In this document: positions 1,568 through 2,504 of the stretch, piece by piece
Position numbering within the stretch: the stretch's first letter is position 1
How the letters are laid out: the number at the start of each line of letters is the position of its first letter
DNA from: a virus
Taxonomy: Duplodnaviria > Heunggongvirae > Uroviricota > Caudoviricetes
Length of the DNA: 8,131 bases
Direction: 5' to 3' (one strand)
IMG/VR virus record: IMGVR_UViG_2671180298_000006
Coordinates: 1-8,131 of that record
Position numbers and translations under genes: made by a program
Notes under the pieces: model-generated
Databases searched by the model: none
Told to the model about the DNA's origin: nothing
Seen by the model: the letters and a program-made list of their open reading frames with translations, nothing else

Positions 1568-2362
1568 TTACTTATTCATTTCAATAATATTATTTTCTAT
1601 CATTGATTTATTTAAAACCAAAGAAGGAGCAAGATGGTTGTCTATTTTAAACAATGCATAACTTTTAAACTGTTGGTGATATCCGTAACTAATAAGGATG
1701 CTAGAAAAATCTCTTAATTCATCTTCTTTTAAAAAATTAAAATGAAATGGGTTGTCACCATTTATGAACAATGAAACATCTATTATGCAGTATTTCTCTC
1801 CGTTGTCATTTGCATAGAAAAAAATATAAGACATTCTGTTTGTTAAGACAATGCCATTAAATTTTCTTATGTCTGTAGCTATTTTGTTTTCCATGTTTGG
1901 TGCTACATATTTATTTTCAGAAATACATTTAATTTCATCTCCAGATGTCGTGATTATATAAAAATGAAACTTATCAGAAATATCTAACTTAACTACGCCA
2001 TCATTATTGTAAAGGCTGCTAAATTTTGGTGGTTCAACTTTTAAAGAATCATAGTTCTTTAAAAGAAGAGGGGAGTCAAATTTAATAACTTGTAGTATCC
2101 CTTTACCTTCAACCTCCATATTGATTGAAGATATAGCAATTGCATTATCTCTTTTATTATTCAGGATTATGGTTGATATATGCATGTCATATATTCTACT
2201 TGCATTTGCTGAATACGACACTGTCACCTTTTTTGATATTTTTTGCACGCCAAAATATATAGTGAAGGCAGCGGCAAGAATAGATAAGAATTTAATGTCA
2301 AATAAGGACCATAGCCACATTAGTTGCTCAATTGCTTCAGAGTTAATCATTTGCTTTACCAT
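1568..2362 (-). CDS. AT-rich hypothetical protein with N-terminal transmembrane anchor; candidate superinfection-exclusion / abortive-infection cargo
   Basis: ORF track 1568..2401 (277 aa), but the listed start is TTG. In-frame ATGs lie at 2381-2383, 2360-2362 and 2348-2350 (rc); I chose 2360-2362 (MVKQMINSEAIEQLMWLWSLFDIKFLSILAAAFTIYFGV…), so the start is uncertain by up to about 30 nt. One strongly hydrophobic segment near the N-terminus, then a roughly 220-aa Asn/Lys/Ile-rich soluble domain. The gene and its upstream region are visibly much more AT-rich than the flanks. Confidence 0.55.
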   Translation of the reverse strand: MVKQMINSEAIEQLMWLWSLFDIKFLSILAAAFTIYFGVQKISKKVTVSYSANASRIYDMHISTIILNNKRDNAIAISSINMEVEGKGILQVIKFDSPLLLKNYDSLKVEPPKFSSLYNNDGVVKLDISDKFHFYIITTSGDEIKCISENKYVAPNMENKIATDIRKFNGIVLTNRMSYIFFYANDNGEKYCIIDVSLFINGDNPFHFNFLKEDELRDFSSILISYGYHQQFKSYALFKIDNHLAPSLVLNKSMIENNIIEMNK

Positions 2363-2504
2363 TATCGCTGTAATACAACACATGTGTGTATATATACGCA
2401 ATGCAATTATTTTGCAAGTGCTTCATTTACTATCAATAGCTACGTCACGTTATTGTTTAATGGTTCTTTATAGGGGCGGCAATAGTTAAAATTATCGCTT
2501 CCGT

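What the first reader, a model, noticed from the sequence alone, without database searches (positions are those of the whole stretch)
1568..2500. AT-rich cargo gene for a membrane-anchored protein in the prophage early-left operon: candidate superinfection-exclusion or abortive-infection factor
A roughly 0.9-kb segment is conspicuously more AT-rich than everything around it and encodes a single protein with one N-terminal hydrophobic anchor and a roughly 220-aa soluble domain I cannot assign to any family. It occupies the slot between the yfdQ-like gene and the PrtN-like gene, where K-12 CPS-53 carries different genes (yfdR, yfdS, yfdT from memory), so this looks like a variable cargo position. 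Inner-membrane-anchored proteins encoded next to the immunity region are the typical form of superinfection-exclusion systems (SieA/SieB-type). It appears to have promoter-like elements of its own upstream, including a TGCAA-ttatt-TTGCA palindrome at 2402-2416, so it may be expressed in the lysogen independently of the early operon.
Basis: partly seen in the sequence, partly recalled or inferred. Interest (0 to 1): 0.75.

Follow-up and report, generated by a model that had tools for sequence, protein, structure and literature searches.

The report
Membrane-anchored prophage cargo gene, candidate defence
An AT-rich gene dropped into a variable slot of an E. coli prophage encodes a membrane-tethered protein of an undescribed family. 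Its relatives sit in known anti-phage defence hotspots of other phages and plasmids, so it is a credible but untested phage-defence candidate.

Summary
Window 1568-2500 has 29.7% G+C against 48.5% elsewhere and is the lowest-G+C stretch of that length. It carries one real gene, CDS 1568-2350 on the minus strand, 260 aa. The start is the ATG at 2350, not the TTG at 2401.

The module is bounded at about 1564 and 2495 by sequence shared with related prophages. Those prophages carry yfdR/S/T, exonuclease or methyltransferase genes there instead. 99 of 5,426 E. coli genomes have the cargo.

The protein has one conserved N-terminal transmembrane helix. Family-wide charge bias predicts that the roughly 220-aa globular part is cytoplasmic. 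AlphaFold (pLDDT 94) gives an Ig-like beta-sandwich plus an alpha/beta domain with no structural relative. There is no Pfam, NCBIfam or PADLOC match, and PHROG 14996 has unknown function.

Homologues are always low-G+C single genes with no conserved partner. They lie:
- in the P2 gpQ-gpA (old/tin) hotspot;
- directly after a Rosmer system;
- near a methyl-directed restriction enzyme in a P4-like element;
- antisense among late genes;
- on small plasmids.

The gene's dN/dS is about 10 times that of neighbouring yfdQ.

Best reading: a single-gene anti-phage factor acting at the cytoplasmic face of the inner membrane (confidence 0.5). It is not a member of the SieA/SieB families. The evidence for an own promoter and operator palindrome does not exceed chance.

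The parts
1568..2350 (-). Cargo CDS: 260 aa plus stop codon (1568-1570). RefSeq WP_047654657, 'hypothetical protein'; PHROG 14996.
   Evidence: ORF. RefSeq start. All homologues start at the equivalent Met. PHROG 14996 matches full length at E 2.9e-178. dN/dS is 0.33-0.42, below 1. AlphaFold pLDDT is 94.
2237..2296 (-). Codons for the transmembrane helix (residues 19-38, IKFLSILAAAFTIYFGVQKI). It is followed by the conserved juxtamembrane K37/KK40-41.
   Evidence: Hydropathy. Helix 19-38 in the model. The transmembrane segment is as conserved as the beta-sandwich, 1.68 against 1.65 bits per position, and the juxtamembrane stretch reaches 2.25.
1925..2227 (-). Ig-like beta-sandwich domain (residues 42-142). 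It carries the family's best-conserved residues: N65-K-R-D68, P94, K98, D101 (E in most members), S111 and C142.
1571..1885 (-). C-terminal alpha/beta domain (residues 156-260). It is less conserved than the sandwich and has no structural relative.
2351..2495 (-). Cargo-specific upstream non-coding DNA that travels with the gene. It contains the palindrome at 2402-2416 and promoter-like hexamers TTGATA-16-CAAAAT at 2436-2409.
   Evidence: Homology to yfdR-type prophages stops at about 2495. The stretch is near-identical in the 92% allele. Hexamers are, at the level expected by chance. Palindrome; its fold z-score is -1.07.
2505..2526 (-). Conserved hairpin AAATGCCCC-TGCG-GGGGCATTT just after the yfdQ stop. 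It belongs to the flank and marks the upstream junction of the slot.
   Evidence: It is shared by the K-12 and other yfdR-type prophages, with one stem mismatch in one of them. Fold energy is -19.4 kcal/mol, z -3.44. No T-run follows, and the terminator scan did not call it.
1549..1564 (-). Short hairpin ACCGG-GTGCAG-CCGGT just upstream of the ribosome-binding site of the PrtN/excisionase-type gene. It marks the downstream junction of the slot.
   Evidence: Homology of exonuclease-type prophages runs up to window 1563 (H70-H74). A similar CGGGTGCAGCCG(G/A) motif, or CCGGTTGCAGCCGG in L022, precedes the next gene after the homologue in L017, L018 and L022. The fold is not significant on its own, z -0.8.
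1250..1531 (-). Downstream neighbour: PrtN-family protein (PHROG 1300, 'excisionase'), 36 nt after the cargo stop on the same strand.
   Evidence: Pfam PF11112 at E 3e-23. PHROG 1300 at E 1e-39. No terminator-like site was found between 1532 and 1567.
2539..3363 (-). Upstream neighbour: YfdQ/DUF2303 protein, the conserved flank of the slot.
   Evidence: Pfam PF10065 at E 8e-93. About 2,900 E. coli genomes carry the yfdQ-yfdP flank. dN/dS is 0.03-0.06.

Best explanation
The segment is a horizontally acquired single-gene accessory module (a moron) in the slot between yfdQ and the excisionase-type gene of a lambdoid/KplE1-like prophage.

Its product is a bitopic inner-membrane protein. It has a short acidic N-terminal tail outside, one conserved transmembrane helix, and a rigidly attached cytoplasmic module made of an Ig-like beta-sandwich and a faster-evolving alpha/beta domain.

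I read it as a single-gene anti-phage (phage-exclusion) factor that works without a recognisable enzymatic domain. The inferred mechanism has three steps:
1. The variable cytoplasmic C-terminal domain recognises a component of an infecting phage at the inner face of the membrane.
2. The conserved transmembrane helix plus membrane-proximal sandwich executes the block.
3. The block works either by obstructing genome entry or early steps at the entry site (direct, Sie-like; slightly favoured) or by oligomerising and perturbing the membrane (abortive infection).

Shown here: the composition, module boundaries, gene reality, single transmembrane segment, family-wide charge bias, fold, lack of family membership and genomic contexts. 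Inferred: the topology, expression in the lysogen, the defence function and the mechanism.
For: Foreign, mobile and optional:
- G+C is 0.29 against 0.485.
- The module is present in 99 of 5,426 E. coli genomes, while the flanks occur in about 2,760-3,030.
- The junctions are sharp.

Real, selected and fast-evolving:
- 221 clusters at 50% identity, nearly all 235-275 aa with the same architecture.
- AlphaFold pLDDT 94.
- dN/dS is 0.33-0.42 against 0.03-0.05 for yfdQ at equal dS.

Contexts of homologues. In every context checked the gene has lower G+C than its locus (0.26-0.35 against 0.41-0.52; 0.47 against 0.65 in Pseudomonas) and has no conserved partner:
- Between portal gpQ/Ogr and gpA of a P2-like Providencia prophage. 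This is the old/tin defence hotspot defined by Rousset 2022 (PMC9122126).
- Immediately after Rosmer RmrT/RmrA, E 9e-26 and 6e-107, and behind a terminator.
- In a P4-like element next to xis-int, with a methyl-directed REase (E 1e-100) two genes upstream.
- Next to an HNH_2 endonuclease gene and next to a DUF4145 gene.
- As the only plus-strand gene among minus-strand late genes of a Pseudomonas prophage.
- On 11-kb and 21-kb Acinetobacter plasmids.
- In this window, a Panacea-domain module lies about 0.6 kb away.

Topology: K+R average 2.56 after the transmembrane helix against 0.72 before it; the C-flank is richer in 117 of 137 members and the N-flank in 6.

Precedents for this geometry in defence: SNIPE has an experimentally shown N-out/C-in topology (PMC13190303), and AbiP has a single transmembrane helix (PMC13064643).
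Against: - No phenotype exists for any family member.
- There is no match to any PADLOC model, even at E<1 for this protein and E<0.01 for 122 members.
- The context evidence is guilt by association from about ten loci, and several neighbours are themselves unknowns.
- In this window the gene is co-oriented with the early-left operon, has only chance-level promoter matches and has no terminator before the excisionase-type gene. It may therefore be expressed only on induction.
- At 29% G+C it may be H-NS-silenced (established knowledge, not tested).
- No cultured-phage genome in INPHARED carries it.
- The soluble part is near neutral, pI 6.2, and no catalytic motif is evident. The effector step is therefore conjecture.
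Confidence: 0.5

Rival explanations
1. A classical superinfection-exclusion protein of the SieA/SieB/Imm/gp15 sort. It would be an inner-membrane protein expressed from the prophage beside the immunity region, with its functional part facing the periplasm or lying within the membrane, and it would stop DNA injection by homologous phages.
For: The gene is in a prophage about 2.1 kb from the cI-like repressor gene. It has a single membrane anchor. It is an optional cargo gene.
Against: No sequence relationship to any Sie family was found in Pfam, PHROGs or PADLOC. Family-wide positive-inside bias puts about 220 of 260 residues in the cytoplasm and leaves only about 18 residues outside. The family spans Enterobacteriaceae, Providencia, Pseudomonadaceae, Acinetobacter, Vibrio and a Syntrophobacteraceae MAG, and also occurs on plasmids. 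That breadth is unusual for an exclusion protein matched to one phage's entry route.
Confidence: 0.12
2. An early-left-operon accessory gene that serves the phage's own lytic or lysogenic development. It would be analogous to the lambda exo-xis region or the yfdQRST genes, would be transcribed from the early-left promoter after induction or infection, and would act on a host membrane target.
For: It has the same strand and position as yfdR/S/T-type genes, which it replaces. No terminator separates it from the next gene and its promoter matches are at chance level. The Klebsiella homologue sits in line within early genes after an MT-A70 methylase. Overexpressing yfdQRST affects host replication (PMC4776307, title and abstract).
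Against: Homologues occur as antisense or terminator-isolated units in late regions, in the P2 accessory hotspot and on non-phage plasmids. In those places co-transcription with early genes is impossible. About 145 nt of private upstream DNA travels with the gene.
Confidence: 0.15
3. A lysogenic-conversion membrane protein unrelated to phage defence, for example one that alters envelope physiology, stress tolerance or host interaction of the bacterium.
For: It is a membrane-anchored protein of unknown family encoded by a moron-like module. It is retained intact in this window's prophage, which is a deletion remnant.
Against: The recurrent association with defence genes and hotspots is not expected under this reading. 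Nothing in the fold suggests transport or enzymatic activity.
Confidence: 0.13
4. An anti-defence (counter-immunity) protein that lets the carrying element overcome a membrane-associated host defence.
For: Early-operon positions near methylases and other anti-restriction genes occur in some loci. Examples are the MT-A70 neighbour with an Acb2/Tad1-like gene elsewhere in the locus and the Antirestrict/RadC island.
Against: Counter-defence genes are not expected to be autonomous antisense units in late regions or residents of the P2 old/tin hotspot. No similarity to known anti-defence families was found.
Confidence: 0.05
5. A decaying or functionless AT-rich insertion whose ORF is kept by chance.
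For: The composition is extreme and the distribution is sporadic.
Against: The 260-aa ORF is intact in every copy examined, with dN/dS below 1. The family has 221 clusters of constant length and conserved motifs. The predicted fold is highly confident. The antisense ORF is not conserved.
Confidence: 0.03

Closest known systems
SNIPE (PD-lambda-1), membrane-bound nuclease of E. coli (PMC13190303)
   Same: It is a single-gene defence protein. It has a short N-terminus outside, one transmembrane helix and all functional domains in the cytoplasm. That topology was shown by PhoA/LacZ-alpha fusions for SNIPE and is predicted here from charge bias. It acts at the membrane where phage genomes enter.
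   Different: The cargo protein has no DUF4041 domain and no GIY-YIG nuclease domain, and it matches no PADLOC model, including PD-Lambda-1. SNIPE's N-terminal region is poorly conserved, whereas here the transmembrane helix and juxtamembrane stretch are among the best-conserved parts. The soluble part is not basic.
Lactococcal AbiP / AbiC (group AbiC/P) abortive-infection proteins (PMC13064643)
   Different: No sequence match was detectable through PADLOC or Pfam. AbiP binds nucleic acids, whereas this protein's soluble part has pI 6.2 and net charge -2.
P22 SieA/SieB, T4 Imm and HK97 gp15 superinfection-exclusion proteins
   Same: They are prophage- or phage-encoded inner-membrane proteins. 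They are optional accessory genes near regulatory regions, and the expected phenotype is exclusion of other phages.
   Different: There is no homology. The cargo protein is much larger, with two globular domains predicted to be cytoplasmic. Its family spans several bacterial orders and also occurs on plasmids.
Morons of lambdoid phages and the defence hotspots of P2/P4-like elements (Rousset 2022, PMC9122126)
   Same: It is a single extra gene with deviant composition inserted between conserved genes, present in some relatives and absent in others. One homologue lies exactly in the P2 gpQ-gpA hotspot.
   Different: In this window no terminator follows the gene and no promoter beyond chance precedes it. 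The strict moron definition is therefore only partly met here.

Membership tests
SieA/SieB-type superinfection exclusion proteins | Sequence homology to a described Sie family (for example Pfam SieB, or PHROGs annotated as superinfection exclusion) | tested here: not met
   No Pfam family at E<=0.01. The only PHROG match is 14996, of unknown function. No family reached E<=0.01 in more than one of the 122 members scanned.
SieA/SieB-type superinfection exclusion proteins | Exclusion phenotype: superinfecting phage adsorbs but its DNA does not enter or is not expressed | not testable with these tools
   This needs plaque, adsorption and DNA-entry assays.
SNIPE / PD-lambda-1 | DUF4041 domain plus C-terminal GIY-YIG nuclease domain | tested here: not met
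SNIPE / PD-lambda-1 | N-out/C-in single-pass topology | tested here: inconclusive
   The positive-inside rule predicts it for 117 of 137 members. No dedicated topology predictor or experiment was available.
AbiP/AbiC (lactococcal Abi) | Sequence or structural similarity of the extra-membrane domain to AbiP/AbiC | tested here: inconclusive
   No PADLOC Abi model is hit at E<1. AbiP sequences and structures were not available for direct comparison.
AbiP/AbiC (lactococcal Abi) | Nucleic-acid-binding (basic) soluble domain | tested here: not met
   The soluble part has pI 6.2 and net charge -2. The family median net charge is 0. This is a proxy only.
Moron (autonomous accessory unit in a phage genome) | Composition different from the surrounding phage genes, and presence or absence among close relatives | tested here: met
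   G+C is 0.29 against 0.485. 99 genomes carry the cargo and about 2,760 carry the flanks. The slot holds other contents in related prophages.
Moron (autonomous accessory unit in a phage genome) | Own promoter upstream and own terminator downstream | tested here: inconclusive
   In the window, promoter-like sites are at chance level and no terminator precedes the next gene. In other loci the homologue is antisense to all neighbours or sits behind a terminator, so it must have its own promoter there.
Known anti-phage defence systems (PADLOC-DB v2) | Match to a model of a known or candidate defence protein | tested here: not met
   No hits for the protein at E<1. There were only two single-member noise hits among 122 relatives.
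Defence-hotspot residents (guilt by association) | Recurrent location in defined defence hotspots or beside known defence systems in independent elements | tested here: met
   P2 gpQ-gpA hotspot. Adjacent to Rosmer. Methyl-directed REase in a P4-like cargo region. HNH_2 and DUF4145 neighbours. This is a small sample of about ten contexts.

The most novel reading that the evidence does not exclude
The family is a previously unrecognised class of single-gene anti-phage immunity. It would be a non-enzymatic bitopic protein with N-out/C-in topology. A conserved transmembrane helix and membrane-proximal Ig-like sandwich would form the effector, and a rapidly evolving new-fold C-terminal domain would sense a phage component at the cytoplasmic face of the membrane. 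The family would be spread among lambdoid, P2-like, P22-like and P4-like elements and plasmids of several bacterial orders.
Probability: 0.35. Interest if true: 0.7.

Novelty: new member of a known kind. Interest (0 to 1): 0.5.

Why it matters
If the protein does protect against phage, it adds a compact single-gene defence family that current annotation tools miss. Pfam, NCBIfam and PADLOC all return nothing.

Its architecture is a membrane anchor plus two non-enzymatic domains. That makes it a useful model for how phage is sensed and stopped at the inner face of the membrane, alongside SNIPE and AbiP.

It also marks the yfdQ-xis interval of KplE1/CPS-53-like prophages as an exchange slot. The yfdQ-side hairpin (2505-2526) is stable and shared across these prophages; the xis-side junction motif (1549-1564) recurs in a few loci but its fold is not significant on its own. 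Mining that slot could yield further accessory genes.

If the protein has no defence phenotype, the finding reduces to an ordinary orphan moron.

Tried and rejected
- **Profile against PDB sequences.** Nothing below E 0.09.
- **Second word-indexed homologue search.** The search with a diverse alignment added almost nothing.
- **Locus scans.** The genome-contig scan gave one locus. Single-protein viral scans for P0029 and P0033 found nothing.
- **Cultured phages.** tblastn against INPHARED gave no match.
- **Literature.** The accession WP_047654657 appears nowhere. The KplE1/torI/Rho search did not retrieve the termination paper I had in mind.
- **Conserved partner gene.** The upstream 427-aa (Acinetobacter) and 477-aa (Citrobacter) proteins are unrelated. 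The partner idea was rejected.
- **Antisense ORF 2121-2489.** Not conserved in divergent homologues.
- **Operator reading of the palindrome.** The exact string is rare, but the test is post hoc. The fold is not significant, and divergent homologues have no counterpart.
- **Rfam.** No family matched in the window.
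Full report
**1. The observation**

The window is the left arm of an E. coli prophage lying next to zur. On the minus strand it reads, in order:
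- a cI-like S24 repressor (4478-5152);
- YfdP (3429-3791);
- YfdQ/DUF2303 (2539-3363);
- the gene in question;
- a PrtN-family protein that PHROGs label 'excisionase' (1250-1531).

The segment 1568-2500 has 29.7% G+C against 48.5% for the rest of the window. The lowest-G+C 933-nt stretch of the whole window starts at 1563.

One minus-strand ORF fills the segment. The mechanical ORF starts at a TTG at 2401. RefSeq and every homologue start at the ATG at 2350 (MINSE/MINxK), so the CDS is 1568-2350 and the protein is 260 aa. An antisense ORF at 2121-2489 is not kept in divergent homologues and is discarded.

**2. Module boundaries and the slot**

I aligned the yfdQ-distal intergenic region with K-12 and two other prophages that carry yfdR at this position. 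Identity is essentially complete through a stable hairpin (2505-2526; -19.4 kcal/mol, z -3.4) and ends at about 2495.

On the other side, prophages with an exonuclease gene in the slot match up to window 1563, four bases from the cargo stop codon (H70-H74).

Related prophages fill the same slot with other genes:
- yfdR, a phage protein, yfdT and torI in K-12;
- yfdR plus a PAPS-reductase-domain gene;
- a 3'-5' exonuclease plus a dATP/dGTP pyrophosphohydrolase;
- a SAM methyltransferase.

99 of 5,426 complete E. coli genomes carry the cargo, whereas roughly 2,760-3,030 carry one or both flanks.

**3. The protein**

No Pfam, NCBIfam or PADLOC model matches it. It matches PHROG 14996 over its full length, and that PHROG has unknown function.

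The word-indexed search found only 11 close clusters, in E. coli, Citrobacter and Klebsiella. An exhaustive profile search found 221 clusters at 50% identity. Almost all are 235-275 aa with the same layout. Where named, they are 'hypothetical protein', from Providencia, Pseudomonadaceae and a Syntrophobacteraceae MAG. Scanning 122 members individually gave no consistent Pfam or PADLOC family, and the family profile finds nothing in PDB sequences.

With the 122-sequence alignment AlphaFold gives pLDDT 94 and pTM 0.83. The model has:
- a short helix at residues 4-16;
- a transmembrane helix at 19-38;
- a beta-sandwich at 42-142, only three residues after the helix;
- a low-confidence linker (residues 147-150 below pLDDT 50);
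- an alpha/beta domain at 156-260.

**4. Topology and conservation**

Across 137 family members there is one hydrophobic segment near the N-terminus. K+R average 2.56 in the 15 residues after it and 0.72 before it. The C-flank is richer in 117 members and the N-flank in 6. By the positive-inside rule (established knowledge) the short acidic N-tail is outside and the globular part is cytoplasmic. There is no basic n-region and no lipobox, so this is not a secreted protein or a lipoprotein.

The transmembrane helix (1.68 bits per position) is as conserved as the sandwich (1.65) and more conserved than the C-terminal domain (1.21). The juxtamembrane KxxKK stretch is the most conserved block, at 2.25. 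The best-kept residues are C142, N65, P94, Y179, Y175, Y32, K37, D68 and S111. No catalytic signature is recognisable, and the soluble part is near neutral, pI 6.2.

Between the two E. coli alleles (100% and 92% protein identity) dN/dS is 0.33-0.42. For the adjacent yfdQ, at the same dS of about 0.1, it is 0.03-0.05. About half of the substitutions fall in residues 148-212. This looks like a conserved membrane-proximal core with a faster-evolving distal domain.

**5. Where relatives live**

IMG/VR holds 22 contigs with homologues. The 92-100% copies always sit in the yfdQ-PrtN slot. Divergent copies (38-48% identity) and more distant ones are, in every case checked, single genes with lower G+C than their locus (0.26-0.35 against 0.41-0.52; 0.47 against 0.65 in Pseudomonas). 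They sit in different places:

| Locus | Element | Position of the homologue |
|---|---|---|
| L017, L018, L022 | Other lambdoid phages | Just before xis-int |
| L020, L021 | Prophage | 200 nt after a Rosmer system (RmrT E 9e-26, RmrA E 6e-107), behind a terminator-like hairpin |
| L035 | P4-like element | Next to xis-int, with a type II methyl-directed restriction enzyme (E 1e-100) two genes upstream |
| L002 | Buttiauxella prophage | Beside an HNH_2 endonuclease gene |
| L023, L024 | Prophage | Beside a DUF4145 gene, antisense to both neighbours |
| L030 | Pseudomonadaceae P22-like prophage | The only plus-strand gene among more than 25 minus-strand late genes |
| L031 | Klebsiella prophage | After an MT-A70 methylase |
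| L037 | Providencia P2-like prophage | Between portal gpQ/Ogr and replication gene gpA |
| L038, L039 | Non-mobilizable Acinetobacter plasmids (11 kb and 21 kb) | On the plasmid |

The gpQ-gpA interval is the old/tin locus that Rousset et al. defined as the P2 defence hotspot (PMC9122126). No partner gene recurs across these loci. In this window a Panacea-domain gene with an overlapping downstream ORF lies 0.6 kb away.

**6. Expression**

The scan finds 6 promoter-like sites against 6.9 expected. The 5+5 palindrome at 2402-2416 is there, but a 5-bp-arm palindrome in 150 nt of AT-rich DNA is not surprising. Its fold z-score is -1.07, and nothing equivalent precedes divergent homologues.

Comparative evidence is stronger. 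About 145 nt of private upstream DNA travels with the gene. In several loci the gene must be transcribed on its own, either because it is antisense to all neighbours or because it sits behind a terminator.

Against constitutive expression in this locus, no terminator separates the gene from the excisionase-type gene 36 nt downstream. Read-through would have to be tolerated or prevented. That last point is inference.

**7. What it most likely is**

The combined evidence is:
- foreign composition;
- sporadic presence;
- autonomy as a single gene;
- fast protein evolution;
- recurrent residence in defence hotspots and beside defence systems;
- presence on plasmids as well as phages.

The best-supported function is a single-gene anti-phage factor carried by mobile elements. 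I put confidence in defence at about 0.5-0.55.

The geometry is N-out/C-in, with a sandwich held against the inner leaflet, a conserved helix and a variable distal domain, and no enzyme fold. This suggests a binder that acts at the cytoplasmic face of the membrane. It could interfere with genome entry or early events at the entry site (direct exclusion), which I slightly favour, or it could oligomerise and damage the membrane after sensing a phage protein (abortive infection). The data cannot separate these two.

SNIPE shows that this topology is used for defence at the injection site (PMC13190303). AbiP shows a single-helix Abi protein with an unassignable extra-membrane domain (PMC13064643). 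The present protein shares neither SNIPE's DUF4041 and GIY-YIG domains nor any detectable sequence similarity to Abi models, so it works like them at most and is not a member of either family.

**8. Rivals**

- A periplasm-facing SieA/SieB-type protein (0.12) is disfavoured by the lack of homology, the predicted topology and the taxonomic breadth.
- An early-operon developmental gene like the exo-xis or yfdQRST genes (0.15) fits this locus but not the antisense, hotspot and plasmid contexts.
- Other lysogenic conversion (0.13) and anti-defence (0.05) cannot be excluded.
- A functionless insertion (0.03) is contradicted.

**9. Novelty and verdict**

The kind of thing is well known: an accessory membrane protein of a prophage and a candidate exclusion or Abi factor. 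The family itself is undescribed and its C-terminal domain has no structural relative. I file it as a new member of a known kind, interest 0.5. The more novel reading, a new non-enzymatic membrane-tethered immunity class, has probability about 0.35.

Noticed in passing
window 1-989 (+): A Panacea/SocA-domain protein (1-573; Pfam E 1.8e-18) overlaps by 4 nt a 139-aa ORF (570-989; PHROG 19071, unknown function). This looks like a PanA-type antitoxin-toxin pair at the very end of the prophage. PADLOC has no hit for either gene.
   Followed up: partly
window ~5858-8131 (+): From about 5858 the sequence is the interior of a gpJ tail-tip gene: 99-100% identity to annotated gpJ genes, and one frame is open for 760 codons. 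It is fused to a truncated cII/YmfL-like gene, whose ORF 5475-5993 runs out of frame into J. This window's prophage is therefore a deletion remnant lacking replication, lysis and head genes, yet the cargo gene is intact. The intact version is seen in NZ_CP015085 (L001).
   Followed up: partly
window 2505-2526: A stable hairpin, AAATGCCCC-TGCG-GGGGCATTT (-19.4 kcal/mol, z -3.4), lies directly after the yfdQ stop codon. It is conserved in the K-12 and other yfdR-type prophages (one stem mismatch in one of them) and coincides with the recombination junction of the slot. No T-run follows, so it is not a canonical terminator. Its role is unknown.
   Followed up: partly
window 1549-1564; L017, L018 and L022 just after the homologue's stop codon: A similar short hairpin (CGGGTGCAGCCG followed by G or A; CCGGTTGCAGCCGG in L022) precedes the ribosome-binding site of the next gene in four different phage backgrounds. 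That gene sits directly before the integrase in L017, L018 and L022, and its protein sequence is unrelated in the different backgrounds. The motif may be a junction sequence for module exchange or a regulatory site.
   Followed up: no
L037 6831-7916 (+): In the Providencia P2-like prophage the homologue is followed by a second very low-G+C gene (0.26). It encodes a 361-aa protein with a hydrophobic N-terminus and has no Pfam or PADLOC match. This is another unknown resident of the gpQ-gpA hotspot.
   Followed up: partly
L034, L035 and L036 at 6015-7448 (+): A 477-aa protein with no Pfam, NCBIfam or PADLOC match travels with the Citrobacter homologue and xis-int. The same block appears in three otherwise different islands: a P4-like element, a CbtA/CbeA island and one other.
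   Followed up: partly
L028 3645-3749 and L029 4030-4134: Related prophages at this chromosomal site are flanked by a partial tRNA-dihydrouridine synthase gene between zur and the prophage end. This suggests integration into the 5' end of dusA.
   Followed up: no
window 1221-1246: A strong terminator-like hairpin, GAAAACCCGCC-TTTA-GGCGGGTTTTT, lies between the convergent 57-aa ORF (1029-1202, +) and the PrtN-family gene (1250-1531, -). The scan called it on the + strand only; A-rich and T-rich flanks on both sides suggest it could act in both directions.
   Followed up: no
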